From the sequence record LC739530.1: 64,000 bases of DNA; one strand, written 5' to 3'. The notes below the pieces were generated by a model, which saw only the letters and a program-made list of their open reading frames with translations, searched no databases and was not told the DNA's origin. Of the stretch, positions 6,470 to 25,607 are shown one piece after another; the stretch's first letter is position 1; every line of letters begins with the position of its first letter. Made by a program: the position numbers and the translations under genes. Source of the stretch: Escherichia phage phiWec172.

Positions 6470-6497
6470 AAATGAAAAAGGCTCCCGAAGGAGCCTG
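6470..6497 (-). terminator. Intrinsic terminator (GGCUCC-UUCG-GGAGCC then U5 on minus strand)
   Basis: Perfect 6-7 bp GC stem with UUCG tetraloop followed by TTTTT in direction of transcription, downstream of 6508..6972. Confidence 0.6.
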
Positions 6498-6507
6498 TAT
6501 CTTAACC

Positions 6508-6972
6508 TTAACCGAGGACTTTAGCAAGGATATTCGCAGCCATCGAAGAAGCTTTTGCAGCAGCAACTACGCCAGCTTTGATAGTGCTATCCTTAATAGC
6601 AGATACCGTTGCAGCATCAGTAAAGAGATAAGTAGTTGTTTTAGAACCACTTGTAAAGGAAAGCATAAGAGCAGTTTCCAGATTGAAAGAGCGATACGGA
6701 GCACCTTCTTTAACAATACCTTCAGCACCTAATTCTGAAGCCATACCCATATCATAGATAGTCATCAGATTTTCTTTATGTGCTGTCGTTGAGCCAGAAC
6801 CTTTTACGTGTTTCTTAACATTCAAAAGAGCACGATACTCTCGGATGTTACCGTCTGCTTTTACATTGACAGCACGGAAGATTTTACCCTCAAAGTTGCT
6901 CTTGATAATGTTACGAACTACTTCAGATTTGTTTGCCGTAACGTCCAGTGCTACCGTAATGATATTGTTCAT
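6508..6972 (-). CDS. hypothetical protein
   Basis: 154-aa ORF. Confidence 0.45.
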   Translation of the reverse strand: MNNIITVALDVTANKSEVVRNIIKSNFEGKIFRAVNVKADGNIREYRALLNVKKHVKGSGSTTAHKENLMTIYDMGMASELGAEGIVKEGAPYRSFNLETALMLSFTSGSKTTTYLFTDAATVSAIKDSTIKAGVVAAAKASSMAANILAKVLG

Positions 6973-6982
6973 AAGTTTTCTC

Positions 6983-7678
6983 TCAATGTTTAACTAACAT
7001 GGTTTTAATGTGTGGAAGGATTCTGTTCACCTTCTGCACATTCTTCTCTGTGTCTTCTATAAAACATACTATATTAAAGTAAGGCAGAATGCAAGACTGA
7101 ATTATCCTCACTTTCAAACTTTCTGCACTTATAGAGTTAGTCCCAAAACCACGCATAAAAAGCATGTAGTCATGCTCTGTGTTATGCCTTAAAAACATCT
7201 CAGTAGGTATTCTCTGAGATTCACCTCTCGCTGTCAAGAGTCCAACAGCAGCATGATTAGCAATTGCATCAATGATATTGAAAACATACGTCGGCTTTGC
7301 TCTTACAGAATCAAGAAGATTGGTATACTGCGAGAATGAACCGTCGGTCAATTCCGTTGAGCAATCTTCGTGATTAAAATTTGTAAGAACACCATCAATA
7401 TCTGCTAAGATGAGATTCCCTTTTTCTACAAGGTCTTTATTGACTATGACTAAGCTATCACGACTCACACCTATAGTTTGTCCAGTCTCTTTATCTACAA
7501 CATTCACAATTGGCTCTGATGTGTGGAACTCTTCGAGTGAACATACAACTTCTCTTGCGGTGTCTTCAAAATCCCTACACTGTTCTGGAGTCCATATGTC
7601 AGAATCAAGACCTAACTCATGAGGATGCAAGTCATAAGCATGGCACAGTACTTCATCAGACTTTCTTAATTTTTTCAT
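6983..7678 (-). CDS. HAD-superfamily phosphatase (possible nucleotidase)
   Basis: Motif LILADIDGVLTNF (DxDGT-type HAD motif I). Confidence 0.4.
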   Translation of the reverse strand: MKKLRKSDEVLCHAYDLHPHELGLDSDIWTPEQCRDFEDTAREVVCSLEEFHTSEPIVNVVDKETGQTIGVSRDSLVIVNKDLVEKGNLILADIDGVLTNFNHEDCSTELTDGSFSQYTNLLDSVRAKPTYVFNIIDAIANHAAVGLLTARGESQRIPTEMFLRHNTEHDYMLFMRGFGTNSISAESLKVRIIQSCILPYFNIVCFIEDTEKNVQKVNRILPHIKTMLVKH

Positions 7679-8204
7679 GATTTACCTTAGAAATGTTTGT
7701 TGCAAATTCACATTGAGCGATAACTTTCATGTTGTTATAGACATCTTGAGAATATTTCTTAGCTTTAGGGATTCTGTACGAATACCCAGCATTATATGAT
7801 GCTAAAACTTTTTGTAAAATCTTCTTTGACTTTGGCTGACCATGCACCTTTGTCCAAAACTCAAGTTCTTTGTGCGTTTCCTTCGCAGCATAGTCAAAGT
7901 CTTTTAAGAGTTTCTTTTTAGCCACATTAGGACTAATTTTGTTACGCTTTACAACAGTCTTCAAGTGATTCTGGAAAATACCATAATCATGTGTCTTTTT
8001 ATTCTCTACCTTCAGACCTAACTCTGACTCTTGTAAGGCTATAGCAGCTAGAGTGATACCCCAACCTTTACCCATGTTATTCTCACCATACTGGTAAGCT
8101 TTTAACATGTTTACTTTTTGGCTAATTGATAGCTCTGGGCAGTCAACTGCATAAGATAAGTGTGCTGTAAACATTAAGCACAAACCTAGAATCAATTTCT
8201 TCAT
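7656..8204 (-). CDS. Secreted lytic transglycosylase-like protein (SLT domain)
   Basis: N-terminal signal peptide MKKLILGLCLMFTAHLSYA; motifs QESELG, YGIFQ, SYNAGYSY resemble SLT E-S / GLMQ / AYNAG. Confidence 0.45.
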   Translation of the reverse strand: MKKLILGLCLMFTAHLSYAVDCPELSISQKVNMLKAYQYGENNMGKGWGITLAAIALQESELGLKVENKKTHDYGIFQNHLKTVVKRNKISPNVAKKKLLKDFDYAAKETHKELEFWTKVHGQPKSKKILQKVLASYNAGYSYRIPKAKKYSQDVYNNMKVIAQCEFATNISKVNHEKIKKV

Positions 8205-8235
8205 TGGTTCTCCTGTTTAGTTTATCGTGACAACA

Positions 8236-8266
8236 ATTATACAGCACTCTGCACAAAATACAAATA
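8236..8266 (-). promoter_or_regulatory. Candidate extended -10 promoter (TGTATAAT) for 7656..8204
   Basis: Minus-strand TGTATAAT at about 8236-8243, weak -35; strong SD AGGAGA upstream of ATG. Confidence 0.3.
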
Positions 8267-8293
8267 AAAAAGGCCGCCGAAGCAGCCTTTTAA
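8266..8293 (-). terminator. Intrinsic terminator downstream of rIIB (stem with one mismatch, UUCG loop, U-run)
   Basis: AAAGGCCGC-CGAA-GCAGCCTTT palindrome; T-run on minus strand. Confidence 0.45.
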
Positions 8294-8304
8294 GAAATTA
8301 CTTA

Positions 8305-9414
8305 TTAGATTTCACGTTTACGCTGAGAGATAAGTTCTCCAGCAGTACCAACGATGACATGAAAAGCTTCAGTCTTGCCATCCCATGCTTTCAGTACTTT
8401 ACGTTGATTATCAACGATTGCTGCAACTTCATAACGAGACGAGCGCATCTTCATATCGTTGTAATCAGTTGGAACAGATACAACATCTCGTGGATGAACA
8501 CGAACCTTCAGAATTGTATCACCTGAGAAGCAACGAACATAATCCCAAGCACCAACATGAAGACCCTGAGAGCAAGTCACGTTACGGTTATTATCAACCA
8601 TCCAACGTGGCATTTCTACAATATTACCTAAATCATTAGGTACTCTGTAGGTGTGGGAGTCAACCAGCTTGCCTTCACGAGTGGATACTTTCTTCCAACC
8701 AATGATGTAGCCTTCTTCATCAATTTCAACATCAAGGTGAGATACGAAGCCCCAAAGTTGTTCTACAGAATCTTTAGATGGGTTTTCCATCAGTTTTTCG
8801 AAGAACATTACAAGTCGTTCAAAACCTTTATCACCAGTCTTCATCATGTGAAGAATACGGTCAACCAGAGTAGAACGCATCTCAACAGCACCGTAGAATA
8901 GCTTGTCACCTTTGATTGTGATAGCCCCCTGAGTGAAGTTTTCGATAGACTTACGAATGTTCATCAGTTCAAAGGCTTTCTTAAACTCACCTTTCACAAC
9001 ATGAACTACAATCTCTTGATAGTTCGGATGAGTAGATTCAACAATTTCAGACTCTGAACCGTAAGTCATAATTACAGAGTCACCAGTAATCATGTACTCA
9101 ATCTTGTCATCTTTCTGCATAGCTTCATGCAGTTTATTTACCGGAGCTTTCTGTACAGCATCTTTAACAACCTTTTCAACTGGTTTGCCAGCTTTCTTTT
9201 TAAAGGTCTTAGCAACTTGCTTCAAAGTCTTCGTAGCTGGTGTAGAAGTCACCTTCTTATTTCCTTTTAAGGTTGCTTCATGACGCTCTACAGCACGACC
9301 AACTGAACGGGTTGAAGTATTAAATCTCTGTGCAATAGCTGTTTTAGTCAGCTTGCCATCTTTAACCAGTTTGTAAATTTCTGCGTCAATCTGTGATTTA
9401 GTTTTAGTAGTCAT
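8305..9414 (-). CDS. rIIB: rIIB-like protein
   Basis: C-terminal motifs VEMPR, CSQGLHV, VHPRDVVSVPTDYNDMKMR match T4 rIIB as recalled. Confidence 0.65.
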   Translation of the reverse strand: MTTKTKSQIDAEIYKLVKDGKLTKTAIAQRFNTSTRSVGRAVERHEATLKGNKKVTSTPATKTLKQVAKTFKKKAGKPVEKVVKDAVQKAPVNKLHEAMQKDDKIEYMITGDSVIMTYGSESEIVESTHPNYQEIVVHVVKGEFKKAFELMNIRKSIENFTQGAITIKGDKLFYGAVEMRSTLVDRILHMMKTGDKGFERLVMFFEKLMENPSKDSVEQLWGFVSHLDVEIDEEGYIIGWKKVSTREGKLVDSHTYRVPNDLGNIVEMPRWMVDNNRNVTCSQGLHVGAWDYVRCFSGDTILKVRVHPRDVVSVPTDYNDMKMRSSRYEVAAIVDNQRKVLKAWDGKTEAFHVIVGTAGELISQRKREI

Positions 9415-9493
9415 CTTATTACTCTCTCTTGTTAGTTAATAAATCATTTTGTGAGGATATTCTAAGGGGCTTTGAAGCCCCTTGTCAAACACT

Positions 9494-11860
9494 TTAATCG
9501 TAAATTGTAGTCCCTTCTGGAACACACTTCACATCAAAGCCCAAGAACTTACTCACTTCGATGGGTGACACTTTATTCCAATCTAAATGAGAAAGCAAGA
9601 AGTTTTCTTGTTTTCTTTTTGAGAAGTAGTTTGTCACCTTAATAAACATACGGTCACCAGCTTTCTTAATTTTCTTGTAAAGCTTTGTATCATTATCAAG
9701 ACACCTTTTCAAATCTTGCAACACACTAATAGTGTAAGTGTATGCAAATTGTGCAGCAACGTATTGGATTTTACCGAACATTGCCTCAACAGCATCTTCA
9801 TTACCTTCTAGGAAGATAGTTTTGTTTGTGTCCCGTGAATAGCAATAACCATCAGAAATCTTCCTGTTATTGAACGTAAAGTTTCTGGTAATAATCCAAC
9901 AGCTTGTAAGGTTAAGGACACCACGCATACAGATGCGTGTCATATACCTGTTATGATTAATCCAATGAACATCAGTTAAGCTGTCGTTCAAGAGCTTCTC
10001 ATCTACTTCAATCCAGTCTTCTGGTATCTTTTTCCAATTTGCTTTTCGGAAAACATAGACTGTCTTCCCTATAACATTAGCAACTGACTTAGCTACATCT
10101 TCTGGAGATGAGCAAAAACATTCACCATCAACTGTGTCGCCAACTGCCTTAATGTAAAGCTGAGGTTCTTCAATTGTGTCTAAGTCTTCTGACACCTCTG
10201 TGTATGAGGCTACACCTTCTGCTGGAACAGCTTTCCAGAGTTTTACAACACCTCTTACAGCTTCTTTACGCTGATAGTGATGTTCCTTATCAGACATCTT
10301 CACAATCTTTAACAAGCTTTTATCAAGTTTGTGTAGGTTGATTAAGTCATCTAGCTCTTTTTCAGTCGAGAATACAAACACAATACCATTATATCTGTGA
10401 AACAGACTTGACTCACTGGCGTAATCTCGACATGCACCACGCAGAATCTGATTGCGGCCTACAGTCTTCTCAGTGCCATTTTTATTACGACGGTCATTAA
10501 TCACGAACAAAAACTGTTCAATTTGGCTTTTACGCATTGCACCAAAGATATTGAACATACTTGCCTCTTGAGTGTAGGAAAGTGCTGTTGCACGAATCTT
10601 ACTCTCTAAAGAGTTGAACTTGACATAAGCAACTGGATTATAAAGATAATCCACTTTAGGGATATTGTTCCCGTTCCTATCAACCTTGATATTACCTTTA
10701 CCGTCACGTTCATAAATGACTGAGCCGTCTTCTGCGTAGATAATCCCACGACGGATGTTTAGTAATTCTACTTCCAGAGAATCAAGCTTAACGCCTCCCC
10801 ACTCTAGCTTTGGACACACAACATTAAACATCTCTCGTGAGTTCAAACGTAACTCAGCATAAGCCTGTGCAGCATCCATGAGTGTAGGTTGGCTGTTAAC
10901 TTTCTTGATAACATCCTTTGTAATGGCTTCAGTTATCTTTTTAGTAGCCTCAATGATAACATTTTTTGTCGTATCATTCATCTGCAATGCTTCACGAGAA
11001 GCTGCAATAGCAACTGAACCAATAGGCATGTAAATGTTTACAAGGTCTACGCTCCTACGGAAAAACTCTGGCAAGACTTTGAAGAAATCATCACCAAGTA
11101 ATGCTTCCATATTAACTGGATAGGCAATATTACCCATCACCACATTAAACTCTGTCCTGTTACCACTAGAACGCCAGCTTTGCTTATGAATCATAGCGTC
11201 ATAAACACCTTCTTCACGAGCAATGACATTCATGTCTGCTAACACGTCATCATATACAATATTACTTTCTGGTTTTACAGCAAAGTATGAGTATACGTGA
11301 CCAGCCTCTTCAAAGAACTTTGAAATACGGTGGTCAGCAACTGCCACACGTACAGCTAAACCATTAGGTTCTTTTGTTGGGTTAGTGGTCAGCTTAGTTA
11401 CTTGAGGGATACCATTCTCAAGGTAAACAGAGTACTTATTAACAACACCATCAACATAGCTAGATACTGTGAATGACTGAGCAATTGCAAATGGAGATTT
11501 TGAACCGATACCCATTGCACCAATGTAATCATTAGAGTCATTCTTCGTAGAAGCCCCGTAGTTTAGGTACAAACTCATAACTTTATCATGAGTCAATCCA
11601 GTTCCAAAATCACGGACTTCAAAGTAAGGCTCAAAACGAGTAGGTAAATGCACATGGAACGGGATATTCTCTTTTCCAGCTTCTTTCTGAGCATCTACTG
11701 CGTTACATGACAGTTCACGAATCACTGCCCTTTCTTTAAAGGTATATACACCAGAACTCAAAAGGCTGAACATTTCAGGTGTCATTGTAATCTGTGCTTG
11801 AGATGTCTCCAAAGAAGTTGAACTCTTAATCACTTCTGCGTGGTCATTTACCATGCGCAT
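9494..11860 (-). CDS. rIIA: rIIA-like protein (N-terminal GHKL/HATPase-like domain)
   Basis: AVIRELSCNAVDAQ, FEVRDFGTGL, NDYIGAMGIGSKSPF match T4 rIIA N-terminal motifs; 788 aa. Confidence 0.7.
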   Translation of the reverse strand: MRMVNDHAEVIKSSTSLETSQAQITMTPEMFSLLSSGVYTFKERAVIRELSCNAVDAQKEAGKENIPFHVHLPTRFEPYFEVRDFGTGLTHDKVMSLYLNYGASTKNDSNDYIGAMGIGSKSPFAIAQSFTVSSYVDGVVNKYSVYLENGIPQVTKLTTNPTKEPNGLAVRVAVADHRISKFFEEAGHVYSYFAVKPESNIVYDDVLADMNVIAREEGVYDAMIHKQSWRSSGNRTEFNVVMGNIAYPVNMEALLGDDFFKVLPEFFRRSVDLVNIYMPIGSVAIAASREALQMNDTTKNVIIEATKKITEAITKDVIKKVNSQPTLMDAAQAYAELRLNSREMFNVVCPKLEWGGVKLDSLEVELLNIRRGIIYAEDGSVIYERDGKGNIKVDRNGNNIPKVDYLYNPVAYVKFNSLESKIRATALSYTQEASMFNIFGAMRKSQIEQFLFVINDRRNKNGTEKTVGRNQILRGACRDYASESSLFHRYNGIVFVFSTEKELDDLINLHKLDKSLLKIVKMSDKEHHYQRKEAVRGVVKLWKAVPAEGVASYTEVSEDLDTIEEPQLYIKAVGDTVDGECFCSSPEDVAKSVANVIGKTVYVFRKANWKKIPEDWIEVDEKLLNDSLTDVHWINHNRYMTRICMRGVLNLTSCWIITRNFTFNNRKISDGYCYSRDTNKTIFLEGNEDAVEAMFGKIQYVAAQFAYTYTISVLQDLKRCLDNDTKLYKKIKKAGDRMFIKVTNYFSKRKQENFLLSHLDWNKVSPIEVSKFLGFDVKCVPEGTTIYD

Positions 11861-11872
11861 AATACTTTCCTC

Positions 11873-12064
11873 TTAGTTTACTGTTAAATTACTTATTAAA
11901 CATTTTACCAGAACCACCACACATAGGGCAACAACCTGCTCTTGTATACCCTTCCCATTGCAGTAATCACACTTCTTGTACTCTGCATAGTACTTGCAAA
12001 GAAGGTAAACAAAAACTGCTACACTACTAAGTGACAGTAAAATTTCTATCCAATATGCTTGCAT
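11873..12064 (-). CDS. hypothetical small membrane protein
   Basis: 63 aa, hydrophobic N-terminus. Confidence 0.3.
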   Translation of the reverse strand: MQAYWIEILLSLSSVAVFVYLLCKYYAEYKKCDYCNGKGIQEQVVALCVVVLVKCLISNLTVN

Positions 12065-12381
12065 GACTCACCTCTCATATTTTTGTAAAGGATAAAGCTT
12101 CTGTCATGGACGATACTTGTAGATACTGCAAAGTTACTTTCAAGCATCTGTTTGTTTGGATTGTAGAAGCTTTCTTTAAACTCGTCAAGCGCAAATTGGT
12201 GATGTTGTGGAAGACCTTTTATACATATTTTTATTGTGATTGCTGCTGCAATCTTGCCAGTCAGTTCTTCTTTAGCTGCTACTAAAATTTTGTTAAGGAA
12301 CTTATGACCATTTTCAGGTTTCTTAATGTTCTCCCAACGTTCTTCTAAGACAATGTTGATATTCATCTCTTTGATTTTCAT
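12046..12381 (-). CDS. hypothetical protein
   Basis: 111-aa ORF; RBS GGAGAAAAC upstream. Confidence 0.4.
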   Translation of the reverse strand: MKIKEMNINIVLEERWENIKKPENGHKFLNKILVAAKEELTGKIAAAITIKICIKGLPQHHQFALDEFKESFYNPNKQMLESNFAVSTSIVHDRSFILYKNMRGESCKHIG

Positions 12382-12394
12382 AGTTTTCTCCAGA

Positions 12395-12422
12395 AATTAA
12401 AAAGGCTCCCGTAGGAGCCTCT
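12395..12422 (-). terminator. Intrinsic terminator after nadV (GGCUCC-UACG-GGAGCC then U5)
   Basis: GC stem with UNCG-type tetraloop and T-run on minus strand. Confidence 0.55.
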
Positions 12423-12434
12423 TATCATATACTT

Positions 12435-14216
12435 TTAAAGCTGCTTGTCAATATTATTTCGAATATCACCAAGAGATGTGTAACCGTACTGCTCAGAGTC
12501 ACTAAAGACTAAACGTAAAGCACAAGCTGGGTGGTCAAGTGCATCTGCAAAGCTCTGGAATCCATAGCCATCTACAGCTTTCAACTTATCACCATCCCAC
12601 ATAGGTGCTACACCACCAAAAGCAGACTTCTTAACACCACTATCTGTTTTAGGGTCTTTTGCAAGCATAATCTCTTTACCACCAATGCTTGCAAGAGTTG
12701 CTTTAACAGCAAATGCAAAGGTGTCACGAGTCATGTACTGGTAAGTGTAAGAGCCTACGCCAAACACTACGTTAGAGCTTGCAAAACCCATTTCATACAG
12801 ACGCTTCAGGATTTCGTTTGCACGTTCCAGCGTGATAGAGTCACCATAGATAAGGCCGATATGCTCATCCAGTACCTTAAACCCTTTAGAGTTAATAGTT
12901 CCCCCAAAGATGTTATACAGTGTCTTGATAGCTCCATCAATCTCCGCTACAGGACGTGTTACAACGTTTGCAGAACCAACCATATAAGCATTTTTCAACA
13001 GCACTGTATCAGCAACTTCAAAGTCTTCTCTGTCAACAACCATTTCGTAGCCTTCTGACAGTAGCCATCCAGCAATACCATAATTGATGTTTTCAAGCTT
13101 CATGTTCAGGACAGAGTTCAGCATTGTGTCACTTGCCTCTAGCTTGCTTAGGTGCTCGTAATAAGCCTTCTTAGCACACTCTAAGTGAATTGCTTTATAA
13201 CCTGTGACAATATGTACAGGGTCTCCAGAGTCAGGGCGAATTACCAGTTTGCCATCACGTTCCATAATTTCTTTACGGAGTGCTGGTAAGATTTCTGACA
13301 CAGTTCTCCAGAAGTTGTAAGTATCTGAAACAATACTTGCAATACCAGTTGGGTAAGTTTCTGTTAAGAAACGACGGAAGGTTTGTAACTCACCTTTAAA
13401 GCGTCTTTCTTCTTCAATCAACTCATTACCACCTTCCCAAGCAATGTTTGCACACATTACAGAGTGTTCAGTGGCTGGTACAGAGTTACCAATATCAGAG
13501 ATTGGGTAGGACTGACCGTAGATGCGTTTAGCTGTATAAACAGCAGGGAAACTATCAGTTCCTTTAAAGCTGGTTAAGTGACCTACAGCGTTAAATGCGT
13601 CATCAGTAAAGCCGGACATACCACGCATAGCAAAGTCATGGCACTGATAGGGTAGATGCAAGTCGTTGTCACAAGTAAGGTCAGCCCACTTCTTACAGAT
13701 ACGTTTGTAGTGCAATGCAATAGTTGCAATGGTACAAGCCTTCCAAATCTCAGCAGAGAAAGCATCTTCCAGATACCCAGCTACCCAATGGAAACCTGAA
13801 ATAGTGTTCTGGAAGACAATCATTGGGGCACGCATAGGGACAACTGTGCCTTCTTCTACAGCGTATACTTCAACTGGTAGATAACCTAAGTCGTTAAGTG
13901 CTTCCCAATGCTCTCGACCGATAGCATCTTTACCTAGAACACCGTTCATGACTTCTAAGATTTCGTCAATTGCTTCTTTTTTGTCACGTTCAAAGAAAGT
14001 GGCGTTCCAGTGGTCTATCAAGTAATCTTTAACAAAACGTTGAATACCAAAAGCCACTACACCGTCAATTGCTAAAGGGCTGTTAAACCATTTGTCACTA
14101 CGTGGTGTCAGGTTCAACATAAGATATTGCGTAGCATCTGGATACTGATATATATGTGATGCCTTGTAAGCATCTGCATTAAGACCTGCTGGTACTGCAT
14201 AAAGTGATTTAGTCAT
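12435..14216 (-). CDS. nadV: Nicotinamide phosphoribosyltransferase (NAMPT/NadV), with a roughly 90-aa internal insertion
   Basis: N-terminus DAYKASHIYQYP, core VIRPDSGDP and GLIYGDSI motifs match the NAMPT family; 593 aa versus about 490 typical. Confidence 0.75.
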   Translation of the reverse strand: MTKSLYAVPAGLNADAYKASHIYQYPDATQYLMLNLTPRSDKWFNSPLAIDGVVAFGIQRFVKDYLIDHWNATFFERDKKEAIDEILEVMNGVLGKDAIGREHWEALNDLGYLPVEVYAVEEGTVVPMRAPMIVFQNTISGFHWVAGYLEDAFSAEIWKACTIATIALHYKRICKKWADLTCDNDLHLPYQCHDFAMRGMSGFTDDAFNAVGHLTSFKGTDSFPAVYTAKRIYGQSYPISDIGNSVPATEHSVMCANIAWEGGNELIEEERRFKGELQTFRRFLTETYPTGIASIVSDTYNFWRTVSEILPALRKEIMERDGKLVIRPDSGDPVHIVTGYKAIHLECAKKAYYEHLSKLEASDTMLNSVLNMKLENINYGIAGWLLSEGYEMVVDREDFEVADTVLLKNAYMVGSANVVTRPVAEIDGAIKTLYNIFGGTINSKGFKVLDEHIGLIYGDSITLERANEILKRLYEMGFASSNVVFGVGSYTYQYMTRDTFAFAVKATLASIGGKEIMLAKDPKTDSGVKKSAFGGVAPMWDGDKLKAVDGYGFQSFADALDHPACALRLVFSDSEQYGYTSLGDIRNNIDKQL

Positions 14217-14231
14217 CTTTTAATCTCTCTC

Positions 14232-16411: not shown

Positions 16412-16462
16412 ATTATCTCCAAAATAAAAAGGGAACCTTTACAGTTCCCTTATAGTATCTGC

Positions 16463-16783
16463 TTACTGAGCTACTTTCAAGATTCTTGTGAATGGAATTT
16501 CACTTTCTTCCATTAACTCTTTAGTTTCTTTGGTAACTTTCACAAAGTTGTCTAGGCAGATAATCTTCTTATCTTTCTTACTATAGGTTAATTTAACCTT
16601 TTCAATATCTTTCTCAGAGCTTTTCTCTTCATTGAAGAGTTTTACAGCCTCTTTGAATGGGAGATATGAGCCATCATTATCACTAATGAATCCTGTACCA
16701 CAATAGTAGGAGTTATGCTCTCTAGCCATAAACTGGCACAGTAAGAAAATCTGTAATTTACGAGTGTTATAAACTTTGCTCAT
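16463..16783 (-). CDS. hypothetical protein
   Basis: 106-aa ORF. Confidence 0.4.
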   Translation of the reverse strand: MSKVYNTRKLQIFLLCQFMAREHNSYYCGTGFISDNDGSYLPFKEAVKLFNEEKSSEKDIEKVKLTYSKKDKKIICLDNFVKVTKETKELMEESEIPFTRILKVAQ

Positions 16784-17791: not shown

Positions 17792-17826
17792 CTAGTTACC
17801 TCACCAAGACTATTTAATTGTTTTAC

Positions 17827-18419: not shown

Positions 18420-18572
18420 TTTAACTTATCTCTCAATTCACAATAAGAGAGTCCTAAAAAGAACCCCAGTAAGACAGAACCTATGAACAACCCAATAATA
18501 CTATCTGTCATATCTAACATCCAATAAAAAGGTGATGTAAGCCTATCAAGACCCACATCACCTTGTCAAGTT

Positions 18573-19520
18573 TTACATAGAGACTCTATCACGAATCTCA
18601 GCGATTTTTGCATCGTTCATTCGGGATTCACCTTTAATCTTAGTCCATCCAAGATACCCACACACCCTGTTAATCACAGAGATATCATGTGAATGGCAAA
18701 CCTCACATTCTTCAACATCAGCCTTTGGTCTGTTACCACAATGTTCACAGATTGCTAAGTCAAAGTTAAGCCCCTGATAAAAACCTTTCAACATCCCTCT
18801 GGTAATACAACTTTTAAGTGCTGTTAAGTTTTCTGGGTTAGCTACCCTGACATACTGGATTCTCCCACCTCTACAGATATGGAAGAATGGCTCTTCTAAG
18901 TCCTGCTTCTCAAATGGTGATATGTCTGCTGCAACATTCATATGGAAACTGTTTGTAAAGTATTCCTTATCAGAAACACCTTTGATAACGCCAAACATAT
19001 CTCTGAACTGTTTTAGCTGAGTTCCGCAAAGTGATTCTGCTGGAGTACCATAGACGGCATATAAGAAGCCGTCTTCATTTTTAAACTCTTCAGTTTTCAT
19101 GTTAATGTATGCCAGAACATCGTATGTAAAACTACAGCTTCCAACTTCATGAAGCCGTTTACCTTCAGCAAGAACAGATAGCTCATCAAGCGCAGTAACC
19201 CCAAAAGAAGCTGTGAAGGACTTCACAATATCCCAACCAACCCTGTCAGTAGGATTCTTAGTTCCTTTATACAGACCACCTTGTGTAAATGCAAGAGGGT
19301 TAGAACTTGCTGGCATATTAGCAATCATTTCGTAGCGTTTCTTGTGGAAGCTGCGAATTATTTCTAGGTACTTATCAAGCTCTTTCCAGAAATCTAAACC
19401 ATTCTCTTTAGAATACTGGTAAATCATCGGTAAGTTCAAAGATACAGCACCAATGTTTGCACGACCTACATAAAACTCTTCACCATATTCGTTATAGTAT
19501 GGTGATAAAAATGCTCTACA
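18573..19520 (-). CDS. nrdD: Anaerobic ribonucleoside-triphosphate reductase NrdD, exon 2 (glycyl-radical and zinc-ribbon region)
   Basis: Glycyl-radical motif RVCGYLG, Cys cluster CEHCG..CEVC; open frame extends upstream of track start to CRAFLSPYY... Confidence 0.65.
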   Translation of the reverse strand, partial: CRAFLSPYYNEYGEEFYVGRANIGAVSLNLPMIYQYSKENGLDFWKELDKYLEIIRSFHKKRYEMIANMPASSNPLAFTQGGLYKGTKNPTDRVGWDIVKSFTASFGVTALDELSVLAEGKRLHEVGSCSFTYDVLAYINMKTEEFKNEDGFLYAVYGTPAESLCGTQLKQFRDMFGVIKGVSDKEYFTNSFHMNVAADISPFEKQDLEEPFFHICRGGRIQYVRVANPENLTALKSCITRGMLKGFYQGLNFDLAICEHCGNRPKADVEECEVCHSHDISVINRVCGYLGWTKIKGESRMNDAKIAEIRDRVSM

Positions 19521-20262
19521 CTTGTTGTTCAGGTAAGTTCGCTAAGCTTACCCCGCTTTATTCAAGCTGCTTACTGTCGCCAGTAAGTCCAGACTATATC
19601 TTCTACTTATTTCTAAGTAGCGTACCATTTCGAGTCGCTTGACCCTACACCGCTACATTCATCACGGTTAGTCGTTCGGCATTTAGATGTATTCAAACTC
19701 ATACTCAAAGTTATTATGCTCTTTCACACCCTTCAATATTGAAGAGATGGTCTTGCGATTGTGTCCAAGTATATTGGATAACTCTCGTATTGACTTAGCA
19801 ACAATAACTTCCTTTGTCACTTTGTGTGTGGCTTTCACGGCATATGAACGCTTTTGGAACTTGTAGCATCCGTTCTCATAACCTTCTTTAGCATTCTCAG
19901 AATGAGTACCCCATTCTAAGTTAGATGCGTGGTTATTTAGTTTGTTATCGTCCTTATGTTTTACAATTGGAAGATTATTTGGGTTAGGTACATACTTCTC
20001 AGCAACTAACCTGTGGACATACATGTCACGATTCTTCTTACCGTAAAACCTCACTTTCATATACCCAGTGTTGGATTTCCACTGCGTAAGCTCTACACCA
20101 TTTTCCCTAAAGACTTTTCCATCTTCAGTGACGTGATAGTTTGGCATGTAAGACTCCTATGTTGTATAGTTTCTTACATCGTACATCATTTAGCACAGGA
20201 TTGTCTACATATGTAGAGTTTCCCTGTTTAGGCACGTTTTAGATGAGCTATAGAGCCTGTTA
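19521..20262 (-). mobile_element. Group I intron in nrdD carrying an HNH endonuclease ORF
   Basis: Exon 1 ends in U, in-frame TAA right after; P-like AACAGGGAAAC, Q-like AAUCCUGUGC, R-like UCAAGCGACUCG, S-like AGAUAUAGUCUGG; terminal G before exon 2. Confidence 0.6.
19683..20147 (-). CDS. HNH homing endonuclease (intron-encoded)
   Basis: HKDDNKLNNHASNLEWGTHSEN HNH motif; lies inside the nrdD intron. Confidence 0.65.
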   Translation of the reverse strand: MPNYHVTEDGKVFRENGVELTQWKSNTGYMKVRFYGKKNRDMYVHRLVAEKYVPNPNNLPIVKHKDDNKLNNHASNLEWGTHSENAKEGYENGCYKFQKRSYAVKATHKVTKEVIVAKSIRELSNILGHNRKTISSILKGVKEHNNFEYEFEYI

Positions 20263-21459
20263 ACCCATCGGCGAAATAACCTTGCCAGAACGCTCAAAAG
20301 CCTCTGCTACAGCCCCATGACCAGACACACTTAAGAAATCTGGATACATTGCTTTAGAGCAACACTCAATAGCTTTACTGTACAGGTGGCATTGACAGAT
20401 ATTCTCATTATGTCTCTTCTGGTCATAAATATAAACCAGTTTAGGGAATACAACAGGTTTCTTGCTCTTACCTTGTCCATTCATACGAACATCTAGGAGA
20501 GTACTTGCAATCATATATTGCAGTCGGTTATCTTCATTGGACATATCTGAATCAAGTAACCCGAATGTCAAAGTTGTAAATGCAAAATCCCCACGACTAC
20601 AAGGTACAGTGTTTAGTTTCATTTCAAGTGACTGGAAACCTTGAGTCAGTTCAATCTGTAGCTGCTCCATGACATAATTGTGGTAATGCTCTTTAGGAAT
20701 ACCATAAGATGCTGCTTTCTCAGCATGATAGCGTAGAGACTTCTTAGCATACGGTACAAGTACCTTATCAATCTCTGCTAAAGTAAAACCACCAAATTGC
20801 TGTGCAGTTGCTGAAAGAACTATGTCACCAATAACCTGTAAGGCCGACAGCACAGACTTTGGTTCACAGTATTCAATGCCAGACATTTCAAAGCCACCTT
20901 TCAGTACTTTACCGATGTCAAACAGACAACAGTTGATACCACCAAAAATTAGGTCTCTTAAGTCATGGATGTAGATAAACCCTTTTTCAATGGCTTCAAG
21001 TTCCTCTGGTGTTAAGTGGTACTGCTTAAAGATTTCTTTAGTCAGATAACCACGAATAATTGAACCTTTTGTAGAAATTAAACTGCTGTCAAAGTTAGCA
21101 TTCTCTCTGTCGCCTAAGAAGAGTGTATCTTTGGTCTTCTGGTAGAGTTCATCCCAATTTTGAGCAACTTCTTTACGGTAATTTCTATATGTTGAGTAAG
21201 ACTCATAAATCTCGTGATTGACTTCTGCCAAAGCACCCTCAACAATACTGTGAATATCATTTACAGAAATCAGCAAATTATTCTGCTTAGTGGACTTTAC
21301 CAGAATCCTCATAAATGCTGACTCAAGAGCTTGGGTAACATCTGGTGGGAGTTCTTTATATCCAACCCTGTTAGCTGACTTAGTTACTGCTGCTAAAACT
21401 TTTTTGATATCAGGTTCTTCAAGTGAGCCATTCTTTTTAATAATCTGTACTTTGTTCAT
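20263..21459 (-). CDS. nrdD: Anaerobic ribonucleoside-triphosphate reductase NrdD, exon 1 (ATP-cone and N-terminal core)
   Basis: ATP-cone-like N-terminus VQIIKKNGSLEEPDIKKV; ends ...GKVISPMG at 5-prime splice site. Confidence 0.65.
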
Positions 21460-21477
21460 TATTGCCCCTTTACATGC

Positions 21478-21500
21478 TAAAAAGGTCTCCGAAGAGACCC
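21478..21500 (-). terminator. Intrinsic terminator (GGUCUC-UUCG-GAGACC then U5) upstream of nrdD
   Basis: Perfect 6-bp stem, UUCG loop, T-run on minus strand. Confidence 0.5.
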
Positions 21501-21507
21501 TTTCATT

Positions 21508-21714
21508 TTAAATCTTTTTAGAAAACTTTGAAACGAGTTTTCTTAGTTTTTCAGTGATGCCTAGCTGTATCTCTAATATTTCAAAGATAACCCATAGTAA
21601 CATGGCTCCAAACAATGAACCTTGTTCAAAATCAGTAAATAGGTTAACAACAAGCATACCAATCACAATAGCTGGTGCATCAACAACCAAACCTTCCCAA
21701 AGGCGTTTAAGCAT
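21508..21714 (-). CDS. hypothetical small membrane protein
   Basis: 68 aa, hydrophobic. Confidence 0.35.
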   Translation of the reverse strand: MLKRLWEGLVVDAPAIVIGMLVVNLFTDFEQGSLFGAMLLWVIFEILEIQLGITEKLRKLVSKFSKKI

Positions 21715-21949
21715 TATTCACCTCTGTCATAAAATTCTGTAGCGTTCCAACAGGTTTTAGGTTTTGACCGTCAGTTTTCATGATGAATGGCATCTGACGA
21801 ACTGGCATCTGTGCAATATCCATCAGGTCTGGCAGTTCATAATCCTGCCCTAACATTCTCACAACATGGTCAATACCACGAGCTTTCGCAAAATTCTTTG
21901 CAGTCTCACACTGAGGGCATCCAGTTTTGGAGTAAATTACATAAGTCAT
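21707..21949 (-). CDS. nrdH: Glutaredoxin-like protein (NrdH-type redoxin)
   Basis: CPQC active site near N-terminus, 80 aa, adjacent to nrdB. Confidence 0.65.
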   Translation of the reverse strand: MTYVIYSKTGCPQCETAKNFAKARGIDHVVRMLGQDYELPDLMDIAQMPVRQMPFIMKTDGQNLKPVGTLQNFMTEVNNA

Positions 21950-23022: not shown

Positions 23023-23360
23023 AATGTGATTTCTCCTTTCTTTATCATTTCTAAGGCTTGTTTTCTGTCTAAAACTTCCCAATTTTCTTTGTTAAACATC
23101 TCATAAGGTCTTGCGTAGATTTTACAATCTGCTGTAGAGATGTAAGAGATACCAGCAACCCATGAGTCATCATTTTGTTTTATCATCATGTCTGTGCTAC
23201 TCACATAGTACATCGTTTTCCGAGGCTTGTGGAGCAAGTATATAGGTCGCTTATGTTTTTCTATTAAATCTTTCATGGTCTCTCCAAAGTTATTTTTAGA
23301 GGGTCTTTTACGACCCTCATAGTTGTTAAAACTAAACACCACAACCCTCGCAATAAGCAT
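23019..23360 (-). CDS. hypothetical protein between nrdA and nrdB
   Basis: 113-aa ORF. Confidence 0.4.
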   Translation of the reverse strand: MLIARVVVFSFNNYEGRKRPSKNNFGETMKDLIEKHKRPIYLLHKPRKTMYYVSSTDMMIKQNDDSWVAGISYISTADCKIYARPYEMFNKENWEVLDRKQALEMIKKGEITL

Positions 23361-25566
23361 CTTGCAGTGCGGATTTACCTACACCAATGCGGCTGTTAAG
23401 GTAGTACATGGTTTTCATACCTACCGAGTTGGCATAAATCATGTACTTCAAAGCTTGAGCCAATGATACCTTCTTAGCTTTTGCGTAGTCAACATAGAAA
23501 TCTGAAGAGATAGCTTGACCAGTGAACTTTTGAACAATTGCATAACAATCAATCAGGTCAAAGGTGTCAATACCCCAAGCAATCTCATAGACATACTTCA
23601 ACTCTTCATAATCTGGAACAATAAACAGTACGTTACCAGTTGCAGATTTTTTAGTTAAAATAAAGTCACGAATTGGGTACAAGCCATTTGTCGTATTAGT
23701 TGCTAGTGAAGAACTCTCATTAGGCATGTAAGCTTCTAATACAGAGTTTCGGATTCCACCATTTTCTTTGATACGTTGTGCTAAGTCATCCCAATCATAT
23801 CGTAGTTTTGCATCATGCTTTTCATCAATCTTCTTGTTAGCTGTCTTTGGAGGAACCCAGCCTTCAGGGTACTTAGTGAACTTCATGTACTCTGGAACAC
23901 CACGCTCTTTAGCAAGTCTCAGAGAGGCTTCATGCAGATAGTAAGAGTGCATCTCTGCAAGTTCATGAAGTTTCGTTTTACCTGCTCGTGAAGAGTAGTT
24001 CACGTAGTTCTTCGCAAGGTAATGAGCCACATTTGTAAGGCCAATCCCAACAGAACGACGCTTCTGAACATGGTTACGCATCGACGGATACGGATAATCC
24101 ATAAGGTCAATAACGGAGTCAACCATTGCAAGAGCATAATAAGCAACGTCAGCGTATTCATCTTCTGAAATTCTCCCTGCAACCAAACTAGCTAGGAAGC
24201 AAAGAGCCACCTCACCATCCTCTTTCACAGCATCATCTCTGTAAAGGTCTGTCTCTTTCTCAAAACCATACACTGGCAACACAACTTCCATACAAAGATT
24301 TGACATCTTCAATGGTTCTTTAAATGGTGTATGTGTGTTCGCATTGTTAGTGAAGAATGGATACACACGACCTGTAGCATAACGCTGTTGAATAAACAGC
24401 TTAGCAATTTCACGAGCCTTGACTCGTCTATGTTTAACACCTGAATGTACTGCATGACCAACTGCCATAGCAAACTCATCAGCAGATGCTGTGTAGAACA
24501 TGTCATAGAGTTTTGGTGCATCTTTGTAAGAGAATAGCAACCAATCTGTATCATACTGAACACACTGCCAGAAATAATCGTTTGTGCCGAATGAGTAGTC
24601 CATCTCGTTAATGCGTTTAGAAGGAACCGTTGTAGGGTGCTTCAAACGCAGTAAATCTTCAATCTGCGGGTCTAGAGCAGTGTAGAAGTTATTAGCTGAA
24701 CCACCACGACTCTTCTGTTTATTTGCCTCTACAGATGAACGTACAAGCTTGTAATAAGGTAGCTTACCCATGTGCTCAATAGTATTTTGACGGATACCAT
24801 CACCAATAGTGCGAGTCTCCATCAGCATACCAATACCAGCTTGCTTTGTAGTCATATCATAAGCAACCTTTGCAGCAATACCAAGTGATTCAGCAGTATC
24901 ATTTGCCTTAATCAAACAGCATGACGCATAACCTGATTTAGTAGCTCTTAAACCATTTAAATAAGGTGTAGGAGCGTTAATCTTCAGGTCAGATAGGTAA
25001 GTGTACAGCTTGATAACATCTTGCAGTCTACGGTGCTTTGGTTGCTTCTCAAAGGCTTTCATAGCCATACCCATAAACATAAATTGTGGTGACTCAAAAA
25101 GTCTTCCCGTTTTAATATCACGGATACCATACTTGTCTCTGAACTGTTTCAAGACTGCATAACCGTAAGAGATATCTTTTGAGTGCACGATGTAACCTTG
25201 CAGGTATTCAAGCTCTTCCTGTGAGTAATCCATCTTCTCCCAAAGTCCTGCTCTCTCCATATTTTTAACGAAGGTAATCAGCGTAGGAACCTTAGTAAAG
25301 CCTCCAAAGGCTTCTTTGTAGATAATCCCCAGAAGTAGCCGTCCAGCCATATCTGAGTACTCTTGAGTTTGTTTATCAACACAAACATCAATCATGGCTT
25401 GGTGCATCTCTTTTGTAGTGCAACCCTCATAGACACGTTTCATAGCTTCCATAGTGACTTCTGACCAGATAATTCCACGCTTATCTGCCCATGATGCCCA
25501 CTTATTCAGTCTTTCTGGGTCAAAGTTTACTACTGTACCATTTGATTTTTTAATTGTCTTAATCAT
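23332..25566 (-). CDS. nrdA: Ribonucleotide reductase class I large subunit
   Basis: 744 aa; N-terminal ATP-cone-like region, C-terminal CEGCGV cysteine pair. Confidence 0.8.
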   Translation of the reverse strand: MIKTIKKSNGTVVNFDPERLNKWASWADKRGIIWSEVTMEAMKRVYEGCTTKEMHQAMIDVCVDKQTQEYSDMAGRLLLGIIYKEAFGGFTKVPTLITFVKNMERAGLWEKMDYSQEELEYLQGYIVHSKDISYGYAVLKQFRDKYGIRDIKTGRLFESPQFMFMGMAMKAFEKQPKHRRLQDVIKLYTYLSDLKINAPTPYLNGLRATKSGYASCCLIKANDTAESLGIAAKVAYDMTTKQAGIGMLMETRTIGDGIRQNTIEHMGKLPYYKLVRSSVEANKQKSRGGSANNFYTALDPQIEDLLRLKHPTTVPSKRINEMDYSFGTNDYFWQCVQYDTDWLLFSYKDAPKLYDMFYTASADEFAMAVGHAVHSGVKHRRVKAREIAKLFIQQRYATGRVYPFFTNNANTHTPFKEPLKMSNLCMEVVLPVYGFEKETDLYRDDAVKEDGEVALCFLASLVAGRISEDEYADVAYYALAMVDSVIDLMDYPYPSMRNHVQKRRSVGIGLTNVAHYLAKNYVNYSSRAGKTKLHELAEMHSYYLHEASLRLAKERGVPEYMKFTKYPEGWVPPKTANKKIDEKHDAKLRYDWDDLAQRIKENGGIRNSVLEAYMPNESSSLATNTTNGLYPIRDFILTKKSATGNVLFIVPDYEELKYVYEIAWGIDTFDLIDCYAIVQKFTGQAISSDFYVDYAKAKKVSLAQALKYMIYANSVGMKTMYYLNSRIGVGKSALQDAYCEGCGV

Positions 25567-25583
25567 TTTTGAATCCTACAGAT

Positions 25584-25607
25584 GAAAAGAGCCTCCGAAG
25601 AGGCTCC
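25584..25607 (-). terminator. Intrinsic terminator (GAGCCUC-UUCG-GAGGCUC) upstream of nrdA
   Basis: 7-bp stem with UUCG loop; short T-run. Confidence 0.45.

What the first reader, a model, noticed from the sequence alone, without database searches (positions are those of the whole stretch)
6470..25607. Terminators share a UUCG (UNCG) tetraloop on the transcribed strand
At least five minus-strand terminators (about 6470-6497, 8266-8293, 12395-12422, 21478-21500, 25584-25607) are built on the same plan: a 6-7 bp GC stem closed by CGAA or CGTA on the plus strand, which is UUCG/UACG in the RNA, followed by a U-run. UUCG-capped hairpins are very stable and are characteristic of T4-type terminators and mRNA stabilisers. 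Several sit directly before the next RBS, suggesting partial termination or processing sites.
Basis: seen in the sequence. Interest (0 to 1): 0.35.

Follow-up and report, generated by a model that had tools for sequence, protein, structure and literature searches.

The report
UUCG-capped terminators in Felix-O1-like phage
Five short RNA hairpins between early genes of this Felix O1-type coliphage are ordinary factor-independent transcription terminators capped by the very stable UUCG/UACG loop; the motif has been known since 1988 and these sites are already listed for phage Felix O1.

Summary
The window is a Felixounavirus, 100% identical to Escherichia phages phiWec174/177, not a T4-type phage. 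All five sites exist. Each reads, on the transcribed minus strand, as a 6-7 bp GC stem (10-11 bp with A-U extension), a C(UUCG)G or C(UACG)G tetraloop, then 4-6 U. Each lies in a 46-100 nt gap between co-directional genes.

There are 5 such hairpins on the minus strand and 0 on the plus strand, against 0.21 expected from dinucleotide shuffles. They make up 5 of 13 terminator-like hairpins in the window.

The loop is kept across about 30 related genomes while stems change by compensatory substitutions. At the site before nrdA, three different stems all carry UUCG.

The Felix O1 genome paper already lists four of the five as rho-independent terminators. The RefSeq record of Erwinia phage phiEa21-4 annotates equivalent hairpins as terminators. 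UUCG loops in T4 hairpins and in E. coli terminators are textbook. So this is real, and already known.

One addition: a conserved sigma70-like promoter ends 0-5 nt before the stem at H1, H3, H4 and other terminators (6 of 18 genome-wide). Its predicted start site lies inside the 5' arm. This could explain how transcription resumes after these terminators. No RNA-end data exist.

The parts
6479..6496 (-). H1: AGGCUCC-UUCG-GGAGCCU hairpin. The U-run UUUUUCAUUUU follows at 6478-6468, then SD AGGAG and the ATG of the i-spanin homologue at 6455. It lies 11 nt after the stop of CDS 6508-6972.
   Evidence: fold -13.0 kcal/mol, z -4.0. Equals Felix O1 t5. UUCG in 25 related loci and UACG in 2.
8268..8291 (-). 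H2: AAAAGGCUGC-UUCG-GCGGCCUUUU hairpin followed by UU AUUUGUAUUUU. It lies 13 nt after the rIIB stop (CDS 8305-9414). It has the longest U-run of the five.
   Evidence: fold -14.7. The G.U pair exists only in the minus sense and becomes A-U in divergent relatives. Loop is UUCG in 28 loci and UCCG in 1. Equals Felix O1 t2.
8236..8241 (-). Invariant TATAAT hexamer 26 nt downstream of the H2 stem. It is a probable -10 of a re-start promoter for CDS 7656-8204. A conserved TGTGCAG motif lies just upstream of it.
   Evidence: Read directly from the sequence. Invariant in all 29 Felixounavirus loci while the flanks vary. The -35 is weak in the window.
12400..12423 (-). H3: AAGAGGCUCC-UACG-GGAGCCUUUU hairpin followed by UAAUUUCU and then SD GGAG. 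It lies 11 nt after the NAMPT stop (CDS 12435-).
   Evidence: fold -16.6. UACG in 14 of 18 loci, UACA in 1, inverted loop CGUA in 3.
12424..12451 (-). Sigma70-like promoter TTGACA-16-TATGAT directly abutting H3. The predicted start site, about 12419-12416, lies in the 5' arm of the stem.
   Evidence: 11 of 12 consensus matches. PWM score 13.4, background fraction 0.003. The -35, the -10 (TATGAT or TATTAT) and the 16-nt spacing are kept in 13 distinct relatives while the spacer sequence varies.
21483..21500 (-). H4: GGGUCUC-UUCG-GAGACCU hairpin (11 pairs with the GAAAG/UUUUU extension, 21504-21479). It is followed by UUUUAGC. It lies between CDS 21508-21714 and nrdD part 20260-21459.
   Evidence: fold -14.7. 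Invariant in 29 loci although the upstream protein falls to 40% identity. Equals Felix O1 t116.
21505..21532 (-). Sigma70-like promoter TTCAAA-16-TAAAAT ending 4-5 nt before H4. The predicted start site, about 21499-21497, lies in the 5' arm.
   Evidence: PWM score 7.8, background fraction 0.044. Divergent relatives have TTGAAA, TTGAGA or TTGATA, a 17-nt spacer, then TAATAT, TAAAAT or TATAAT at the same place.
25588..25607 (-). H5: GGAGCCUC-UUCG-GAGGCUCU hairpin followed by UUUCAUC, the weakest U-run of the five. It lies between CDS 25613-25951 and nrdA 23332-25566. No convincing promoter lies on either side.
   Evidence: fold -15.2. Equals Felix O1 t111. The stem is replaced by GGGGUCUC/GAGACCCU in 7 divergent loci and by AGGGACUC/GAGUCCUU in Erwinia phages, always with UUCG.
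6499..6527 (-). Sigma70-like promoter TTGCTA-17-TAAGAT ending 2 nt before H1. The predicted start site is about 6494-6491, inside the stem.
   Evidence: PWM score 9.0, background fraction 0.024. The -10 varies only at its two middle positions in relatives (TAAGAT, TATGAT, TATTAT, TAATAT). The -35 lies in coding sequence and is less constrained.
16429..16480 (-). Comparison site: a non-UNCG terminator AAGGGAACU-GUAAA-GGUUCCCUU (16451-16429) abutted by TTGAAA-17-TACTAT (16480-16452). It has the same promoter/terminator overlap without a UNCG loop.
   Evidence: score 10.8, background fraction 0.010. TTGAAA, the 17-nt spacing and TACTAT/TATGAT are kept in 17 distinct contexts, including two different upstream genes. 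Equals Felix O1 t124.

Best explanation
These are rho-independent (intrinsic) transcription terminators of the leftward early/middle gene array of a Felix O1-like phage, which is transcribed by the host RNA polymerase.

Proposed mechanism. As the polymerase transcribes each site, the nascent RNA folds into a short GC-rich stem. The C(UUCG)G or C(UACG)G tetraloop folds very fast and adds extra stability, which lets a stem of only 6-7 GC pairs act as a terminator inside a 46-53 nt intergenic gap. The following run of 4-6 U weakens the RNA-DNA hybrid, so a fraction of polymerases release.

Termination is probably partial, because the U-runs are short and interrupted and because needed genes (i-spanin, nrdD, nrdA) start 20-30 nt downstream. 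The hairpin left at the 3' end of released or processed transcripts should also protect them from 3' exonucleases.

Shown here: sequence anatomy, strand specificity, excess over chance, conservation with covarying stems, and agreement with published annotation. Inferred: actual termination, its efficiency, and mRNA stabilisation.

An added layer is likely but unproven. At H1, H3 and H4 a conserved sigma70-like promoter ends 0-5 nt before the stem, so transcripts would restart within the 5' arm. At H2 the restart promoter lies downstream. At H5 expression of nrdA would depend on read-through.
For: - Anatomy and strand. Gene orientation and the 46-100 nt gaps.
- Energies of -13 to -16.6 kcal/mol, z about -4, and always more stable in the mRNA sense. 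The H2 G.U pair exists only in that sense.
- 5 observed against 0.21 expected; none on the non-transcribed strand. 5 of 8 tetraloop terminators are UNCG, P about 1e-8.
- Orthologous sites in about 30 IMG/VR Felixounavirus genomes keep UNCG in 127 of 132 cases (my tally from the listing). Two of the four loop point changes fall at the free N position.
- The nrdA-upstream site has three different stems with the same UUCG across two genera.
- On 9 distinct hairpins, 100% of cells pair, 5 of 7 pairs show changes on both sides, and the closing C-G and U.CG are invariant.
- A sixth copy sits on the plus strand among plus-strand genes.
- The Felix O1 paper lists t2, t5, t35, t111 and t116 as rho-independent terminators (PMC3185647). 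NC_011811 annotates the Erwinia-phage versions as terminators.
- Stability of CUUCGG and its occurrence in T4 mRNA and in terminators: PMC4371310 and PMC3972237.
Against: - No RNA 3'-end mapping exists for any Felixounavirus that I could find.
- The U-runs are short (UUUU C in H5, UUUUU A in H3 and H4), so some sites may terminate weakly.
- The loop is not indispensable. Relatives carry UACA (L003), UUUG (L035) and an inverted CGUA loop (L015, L016, L018) at otherwise intact sites. A Hafnia-phage-like relative (L032/L073) has terminators in 23 kb but no UNCG loop.
- Most related genomes are over 90% identical, so the conservation counts are not independent.
- Promoters abutting H1, H3 and H4 raise the possibility that the hairpin also, or instead, serves the downstream transcript.
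Confidence: 0.82

Rival explanations
1. Pure RNA-stability or processing elements. The polymerase reads through. RNase E cuts the AU-rich stretch after the hairpin, and the UNCG-capped stem only blocks 3' exonucleases, setting different half-lives for upstream and downstream cistrons.
For: The hairpins sit 10-14 nt before the next Shine-Dalgarno sequence in four of the five gaps, and the stretch after them is AU-rich. CUUCGG hairpins in T4 were linked to several processes, not only termination (PMC3972237). The U-runs are short.
Against: A U-run immediately follows the stem at every site and in every relative, including sites with different stems. That is the terminator signature and is not needed for an exonuclease block. 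H2 ends a gene pair and is followed by its own TATAAT. Stabilisation and termination are not exclusive.
Confidence: 0.1
2. 5'-terminal stem-loops. The hairpins belong to transcripts started at the abutting sigma70-like promoters and protect their 5' ends from RNase E/RppH-dependent decay. The U-run is only a spacer before the ribosome binding site.
For: Conserved promoter-like -35/-10 pairs end 0-5 nt before the stem at H1, H3 and H4, and also at 16452 and at phiWec174 78228 and 80296.
Against: With the usual 6-8 nt between the -10 and the start site, initiation falls inside the 5' arm. The hairpin would then be truncated, and at 16451 and 80296 it would be destroyed, rather than sitting intact at the 5' end. 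H2 and H5 have no such promoter. The U-run is conserved.
Confidence: 0.06
3. DNA-level palindromes: a dispersed repeat (REP-like or mobile), or a binding or cleavage site for a phage protein, that is unrelated to RNA.
For: The stem AGGCTCC/GGAGCCT recurs at H1, H3, 43698-43721 and phiWec174 78228. H5 of the divergent relatives nearly copies H4. This suggests copying or conversion between sites.
Against: Strand asymmetry argues against a DNA element. The loop always reads UNCG in the mRNA sense. The T-run is on one side only. The H2 stem has a G.U that is a C.A mismatch in the other sense. Stems differ between sites by compensatory changes with no conserved flanks. All copies are intergenic and co-oriented with the genes.
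Confidence: 0.02

Closest known systems
Rho-independent terminators of Salmonella phage Felix O1 (Whichard et al. 2010, Table 2: t2, t5, t35, t111, t116)
   Same: The sequences match at orthologous positions. t2 ggctgcttcggcggcctttttt equals H2. t5 ggctccttcgggagccttttt equals H1. t111 gagcctcttcggaggctctttt equals H5. t116 ggtctcttcggagaccttttt equals H4. t35 equals the sixth copy outside the window.
   Different: H3 (the UACG loop, after NAMPT) is not in that table. The paper does not comment on the shared tetraloop. It states that how transcription passes the terminators is unknown. The phiWec174 record itself carries no regulatory annotation.
C(UUCG)G hairpins of phage T4 intercistronic regions (Tuerk et al. 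1988) and UNCG tetraloops in general
   Same: They share the hexamer C-UNCG-G with a C-G closing pair, an intercistronic position in a lytic coliphage, and a proposed role as a very stable, fast-folding cap (PMC4371310, PMC3972237).
   Different: This phage belongs to Ounavirinae, not to the T4 group. I did not compare with T4 sequences directly. What I state about T4 rests on those two secondary sources.
E. coli intrinsic terminators with tetraloop caps (d'Aubenton Carafa et al. 1990, cited in PMC3972237) and synthetic UUCG-loop terminators
   Same: A GC stem, a 4-nt stable loop and a U-run. UUCG and GAAA loops are cited as nucleating stable terminator hairpins.
   Different: The frequency here is high: 5 of 13 terminators in the window and 6 of 18 in the genome. 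I have no matched figure for E. coli from a tool or from a paper I could read, so I make no claim that it is unusual.
Annotated terminators of Erwinia phage phiEa21-4/phiEa104 (Kolesnikvirus, Ounavirinae)
   Same: AAGGGACUC-UUCG-GAGUCCUU followed by a U-run, one of them upstream of nrdA as H5 is. They are annotated 'terminator' in NC_011811.
   Different: The stem sequence differs. No abutting promoter was evident at the two sites I read.

Membership tests
Intrinsic (rho-independent) terminator | GC-rich RNA hairpin of about 5-14 bp with a short loop, on the transcribed strand | tested here: met
   6-7 GC-rich pairs (10-11 with the A-U extension), a 4-nt loop, -13 to -16.6 kcal/mol, z about -4, and stronger in the mRNA sense.
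Intrinsic (rho-independent) terminator | U-rich tract immediately 3' of the stem | tested here: met
   4-6 consecutive U start at or inside the last stem pairs at all five sites and in all relatives. The tracts are short and interrupted, which suggests moderate strength.
Intrinsic (rho-independent) terminator | Position downstream of a stop codon, co-oriented with the genes | tested here: met
   The hairpins start 11-13 nt after the stop at H1-H3 and within about 6 nt at H4 and H5, counting from the core GC stem. All are in gaps between minus-strand CDS.
Intrinsic (rho-independent) terminator | Transcript 3' ends or polymerase release at the U-tract | not testable with these tools
   No RNA-end data for Felixounavirus were found in the paper library. 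Felix O1 has only RT-PCR timing data.
C(UNCG)G tetraloop hairpin | Loop sequence U-N-C-G | tested here: met
   UUCG four times and UACG once. Relatives show UACG and UCCG variants at the N position.
C(UNCG)G tetraloop hairpin | C-G closing base pair | tested here: met
   Invariant in all 9 distinct hairpins.
C(UNCG)G tetraloop hairpin | Exceptional thermodynamic stability and the specific loop fold (syn G, U-G trans-wobble) | not testable with these tools
   Only nearest-neighbour energies were computed. The stability claim rests on the literature (PMC4371310).
T4-type phage regulatory hairpins | The genome is a T4-like (Straboviridae) phage | tested here: not met
   100% identity to Escherichia phages phiWec174/177. 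Taxonomy is Ounavirinae; Felixounavirus. It works like the T4 hairpins but is not a member of that phage group.
RNase III processing site | Double-stranded stem of roughly two helical turns (about 20 bp) | tested here: not met
   Stems are 6-11 bp. The length criterion comes from general knowledge of RNase III.
Dispersed palindromic repeat (REP-like or mobile) | Conserved sequence including flanks, in either orientation, copy-like distribution | tested here: not met
   There are four different stems related by compensatory changes and no shared flanks beyond the U-run and RBS. All copies are co-oriented with transcription. Some stems do recur (H1, H3, 43698, 78228).
Rfam families | Match at gathering score to any curated RNA family | tested here: not met
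   No gathering-level hit at any hairpin. Only sub-threshold hits appear over H1 and H2, to the Trp leader and three sRNA-type families.

The most novel reading that the evidence does not exclude
In Felix O1-like phages many terminators are fused to a host-type promoter. The -10 hexamer ends 0-5 nt before the terminator stem, so the polymerase would initiate inside the 5' arm.

Transcripts arriving from upstream contain the full hairpin and terminate. Transcripts started at the fused promoter lack part of it and escape. This would give a roughly 50-nt insulating 'stop-and-restart' module.

If true, it would answer the question left open in the Felix O1 genome paper: how transcription gets past its numerous terminators. 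The hyperstable UNCG cap would be what allows the stem to be short enough for this packing.

Support: 6 of 18 terminators genome-wide score in the top 5% for an abutting promoter (binomial P 1.7e-4). The -35, the -10 and the spacing are conserved while spacers vary.
Probability: 0.4. Interest if true: 0.45.

Novelty: already known. Interest (0 to 1): 0.18.

Why it matters
The finding itself matters little. It confirms that this unannotated phage genome carries the same intrinsic terminators already tabulated for Felix O1. It also confirms that they use the classic UUCG/UACG cap. This helps annotate transcription units (rIIA-rIIB, NAMPT, the nrd genes, the spanins), and the hairpins could serve as compact terminator parts.

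The side observation could matter more for this phage group, whose temporal regulation is unexplained. Conserved host-type promoters abut the terminator stems. That gives a concrete, testable model of how a phage without its own RNA polymerase or known sigma or anti-terminator factors meters transcription along a long co-directional gene array.

Tried and rejected
- Chance: rejected by shuffles (5 against 0.21).
- DNA palindrome or mobile repeat: rejected on strand asymmetry and covarying stems.
- Known RNA family: Rfam gives nothing at gathering level over the hairpins.
- RNase III site: the stems are too short.
- T4 relationship: the genome is a Felixounavirus.
- Transcriptome or TSS data for Felixounavirus: two literature searches gave nothing usable. 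One search was badly framed.
- Prior descriptions of start sites inside terminator hairpins: the search returned nothing pertinent. The search was narrow, so I do not claim this is unreported.
- Tuerk et al. 1988 (PMC279771) is not held, so T4 statements rest on secondary sources.
- The d'Aubenton-Carafa terminator score was considered but not computed, because I could only recall the formula from memory.
- The built-in terminator scan missed H5 entirely and listed H4 only on the plus strand, so I wrote my own enumerator.


Full report
**What the window is.** A megablast of window 6000-14000 gives 100% identity to Escherichia phages phiWec177 and phiWec174, and 95-97% to many Felixounavirus genomes. 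Taxonomy is Caudoviricetes; Ounavirinae; Felixounavirus. It is therefore a Felix O1-like phage, not a T4-type one, although it carries rIIA/rIIB homologues. Window coordinates equal LC739531 coordinates up to about 13950 and are +1 after that. From position 1 to about 34400 every annotated gene is on the minus strand. The minus strand is therefore the mRNA sense for all five sites.

**Check of the observation.** In RNA sense they read:
- H1, 6496-6479: AGGCUCC UUCG GGAGCCU, then UUUUUCAUUUU.
- H2, 8291-8268: AAAAGGCUGC UUCG GCGGCCUUUU, then UU.
- H3, 12423-12400: AAGAGGCUCC UACG GGAGCCUUUU, then UAAUUU.
- H4, 21500-21483: GGGUCUC UUCG GAGACCU, then UUUUAGC.
- H5, 25607-25588: GGAGCCUC UUCG GAGGCUCU, then UUUCAUC.

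All five have the C-G closing pair of the classic C(UNCG)G motif.

ViennaRNA gives -13.0, -14.7, -16.6, -14.7 and -15.2 kcal/mol. The z-scores are -3.6 to -4.3 and none of 200 shuffles folds as well. The complementary (plus-sense) strands fold less well at every site: -12.6, -10.3, -12.2, -8.8 and -12.1. The H2 stem contains a G.U pair in the minus sense that is a C.A mismatch in the plus sense.

**Chance.** There are 39 C(UNCG)G hexamers in the window, 16 on the plus strand and 23 on the minus strand. Only these five cap a stem longer than 4 pairs, and all five are minus-sense. Hairpins with a stem of at least 6 pairs, a UNCG loop and a U tail number 5, against a mean of 0.21 (maximum 2) in 200 dinucleotide-preserving shuffles.

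My own enumeration finds 13 terminator-like hairpins on the transcribed strand at -9 kcal/mol or better. Eight of them have tetraloops and five of those are UNCG. Given base composition the probability is about 1e-8. The other terminators have loops UAC, GUAAA, UGAU, UCA, UUAGUU, UUUUAC, UGAA and UAAA. The UNCG cap is therefore frequent but not universal.

**Context.** Each hairpin lies in a short gap between co-directional genes:
- H1 lies between a hypothetical gene (6508-6972) and the i-spanin homologue (6108-6455).
- H2 follows rIIB (8305-9414).
- H3 follows nicotinamide phosphoribosyltransferase (12435-).
- H4 lies between a small ORF (21508-21714) and the first part of nrdD (20260-21459).
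- H5 lies between a small ORF (25613-25951) and nrdA (23332-25566).

Gap lengths are 52, 100, 53, 48 and 46 nt. In four of the five gaps the Shine-Dalgarno sequence of the next gene begins 10-14 nt after the stem. At H2 it is 57 nt away.

**Related genomes.** I fetched 72 IMG/VR loci around rIIB and nrdB homologues. I extracted the orthologous gaps by anchoring on the flanking proteins.
- H1 has UUCG in 25 loci and UACG in 2.
- H2 has UUCG in 28 and UCCG in 1. Its G.U pair becomes A-U in the divergent lineages.
- H3 has UACG in 14, UACA in 1, and an inverted CGUA loop in 3.
- H4 is invariant in 29 loci, although the upstream protein drops to 40% identity.
- H5 has UUCG in 28 and UUUG in 1. In seven divergent genomes the stem is GGGGUCUC/GAGACCCU instead of GGAGCCUC/GAGGCUCU.

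In Erwinia phages phiEa104 and phiEa21-4 (genus Kolesnikvirus; identified) the hairpin upstream of nrdA is AGGGACUC UUCG GAGUCCUU, and further copies occur nearby. One orthologous position thus carries three different stems and the same loop.

On nine distinct hairpin sequences, all 63 cells form standard pairs. Five of the seven pairs show changes on both sides. The closing C-G and the U, C and G of the loop are invariant. Sliding the partner by one to three columns drops pairing to 38-60%. That alignment mixes paralogues chosen because they are hairpins, so it describes the common plan and is not an independent proof.

A Hafnia-phage-like relative (L032/L073, identified) has terminators in 23 kb but none with a UNCG loop. 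The loop mutants listed above show that the cap is favoured, not essential.

**What is already known.** The Felix O1 genome paper (PMC3185647) tabulates 19 rho-independent terminators found with TransTerm. Among them are t2 (= H2), t5 (= H1), t111 (= H5), t116 (= H4) and t35. t35 corresponds to a sixth UUCG hairpin outside the window, at phiWec174 78228-78245 on the plus strand among plus-strand genes. H3 is not in that table. The paper does not mention the shared loop. It says it is not known whether transcription passes the terminators by read-through or by downstream promoters.

The RefSeq record of phiEa21-4 annotates its UUCG hairpins as 'terminator'. The CUUCGG hairpin was discovered in T4 mRNA, is unusually stable, and nucleates folding. 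UUCG and GAAA loops are associated with rho-independent terminators. These points are stated in PMC4371310 and PMC3972237, which cite Tuerk et al. 1988 and d'Aubenton Carafa et al. 1990. I could not read the 1988 paper itself. Both the sites and the principle are therefore already described.

**Most likely mechanism.** These are intrinsic terminators. The UNCG cap gives a stem of only 6-7 GC pairs enough stability and folding speed to work in a gap of about 50 nt. The short U-runs (UUUU in H5, UUUUU in H1, H3 and H4, UUUUUU in H2) suggest incomplete termination. So does the need to express nrdA, nrdD and the spanin genes just downstream. The 3' hairpin should also protect released RNA from 3' exonucleases. 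Only the anatomy, statistics and conservation are shown here. Termination itself is inferred.

**An unexpected regularity.** The consensus scan placed sigma70-type promoters directly against several hairpins. With a simple position-weight model I scored the best promoter whose -10 ends 0-10 nt before each stem, and compared it with the same statistic at all positions of the gene block.
- H1 (TTGCTA-17-TAAGAT) scores in the top 2.4%.
- H3 (TTGACA-16-TATGAT) scores in the top 0.3%.
- H4 (TTCAAA-16-TAAAAT) scores in the top 4.4%.
- The GUAAA terminator at 16451 (TTGAAA-17-TACTAT) scores in the top 1.0%.
- H2 and H5 do not stand out.

Outside the window the same holds for the sixth UUCG terminator (TTGACA-17-TATCTT, gap 3 nt) and for a GAGA-loop terminator (TTGACC-17-TATGAT, gap 0). 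That makes 6 of 18 terminators genome-wide, binomial P 1.7e-4.

In relatives the hexamers and the spacing persist while the spacer sequence changes:
- At H3, TTGACA-16-TAT(G/T)AT appears in 13 distinct contexts.
- At H4 the -35 is TTGAAA, TTGAGA, TTGATA or TTTAAA. A 17-nt spacer follows, then a -10 of TAATAT, TAAAAT or TATAAT.
- At 16451, TTGAAA-17-TA(C/T)(T/G)AT appears in 17 contexts, behind two different upstream genes.
- At H1 the -10 varies only at its two central positions.

With the usual 6-8 nt from the -10 to the start site, initiation would fall inside the 5' arm of the stem. Transcripts made there would then carry a truncated hairpin or none. The simplest reading is a compact stop-and-restart module. 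Upstream transcripts see the whole terminator and locally initiated ones do not.

H2 instead has an invariant TATAAT 26 nt downstream of the stem (8241-8236). H5 has nothing convincing, so nrdA would depend on read-through. This is inference from sequence geometry and conservation. I rate it at about 0.4 and report it as the most novel reading, not as the finding.

**Rivals.**
- A pure stability or processing role is possible, but it does not explain the invariable U-run.
- A 5'-terminal protective stem-loop is disfavoured because the predicted start lies inside the stem, not before it.
- A DNA-level palindrome or mobile repeat is disfavoured by the strict strand asymmetry and the covarying stems. 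However, recurrence of the AGGCUCC stem at H1, H3, 43698-43721 and 78228 hints at copying between sites. So does the near-identity of H4 with the divergent H5.
- Rfam has no family covering these hairpins.

**Verdict.** The thing is already known, both as annotated terminators of the type phage and as a general principle of terminator design. Interest is low for the finding itself. The promoter-terminator overlap is worth a transcript-end mapping experiment.

Noticed in passing
window 6499-6527, 12424-12451, 16452-16480, 21505-21532 (minus); phiWec174 record about 78195-78227 and 80267-80295 (L075 28195-28227, 30267-30295, plus): Conserved sigma70-like promoters end 0-5 nt before terminator stems. 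This holds for 6 of 18 terminators genome-wide (binomial P 1.7e-4). The predicted start site lies inside the 5' arm, which suggests a stop-and-restart module.
   Followed up: partly
window 36735-37018 (+): An Rfam Group I intron match above the gathering score (63.8 bits). It lies between plus-strand CDS 34654-36837 and 37067-37621. The host gene was not identified.
   Followed up: no
window 18573-21459 (-), especially 19570-19750: nrdD is split into two CDS (18573-19427 and 20260-21459) around a homing-endonuclease ORF (19683-20147). The gaps are highly structured. A sub-threshold Group I intron hit is present (33 bits, E 2e-6). This is probably a second intron, reminiscent of the T4 nrdD intron.
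   Followed up: partly
window 890-974, 1684-1769, 2756-2843, 3225-3311 (-): Four near-identical early-region intergenic modules. In each, TTTACA is followed by a GGGGCUUAA...UUAAGCCCC hairpin that spans the promoter spacer and the -10 (TATCTT). A conserved CCTAAACTGGAGA ribosome site follows. These hairpins have no U-run.
   Followed up: no
window 9415-9493 (-), rIIA-rIIB gap: A promoter TTGACA-18-TAGAAT (11 of 12 consensus matches) whose spacer is entirely the hairpin AAGGGGCU-UCAA-AGCCCCUU.
   Followed up: no
window 3693-4165 (-) and 8245-8255 (-): The motif TGTGCAG (or CGTGCAG) occurs three times in the 473-nt non-coding region. It is also conserved between H2 and its downstream TATAAT in all relatives. 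It may be a regulator site or a phage-specific promoter element.
   Followed up: no
L015, L016, L018 (orthologues of window 12400-12423): The H3 loop is exactly inverted (CGUA instead of UACG) with the stem kept. This looks like a palindrome-mediated loop inversion. It is a natural variant that lacks the UNCG cap.
   Followed up: no
window 43698-43721 (both strands): A bidirectional terminator between convergent thyA (+) and CDS 43733-44098 (-). It uses the same AAGGCUCC/GGAGCCUU stem as H1 and H3 but with an 8-nt loop (UUUUUACG in the minus sense). It equals Felix O1 t79/t80.
   Followed up: no
window about 13950-13972: A one-base indel relative to phiWec174. In that record the NAMPT gene is annotated as frameshifted. 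The window matches phiWec177 perfectly in the stretch tested.
   Followed up: no
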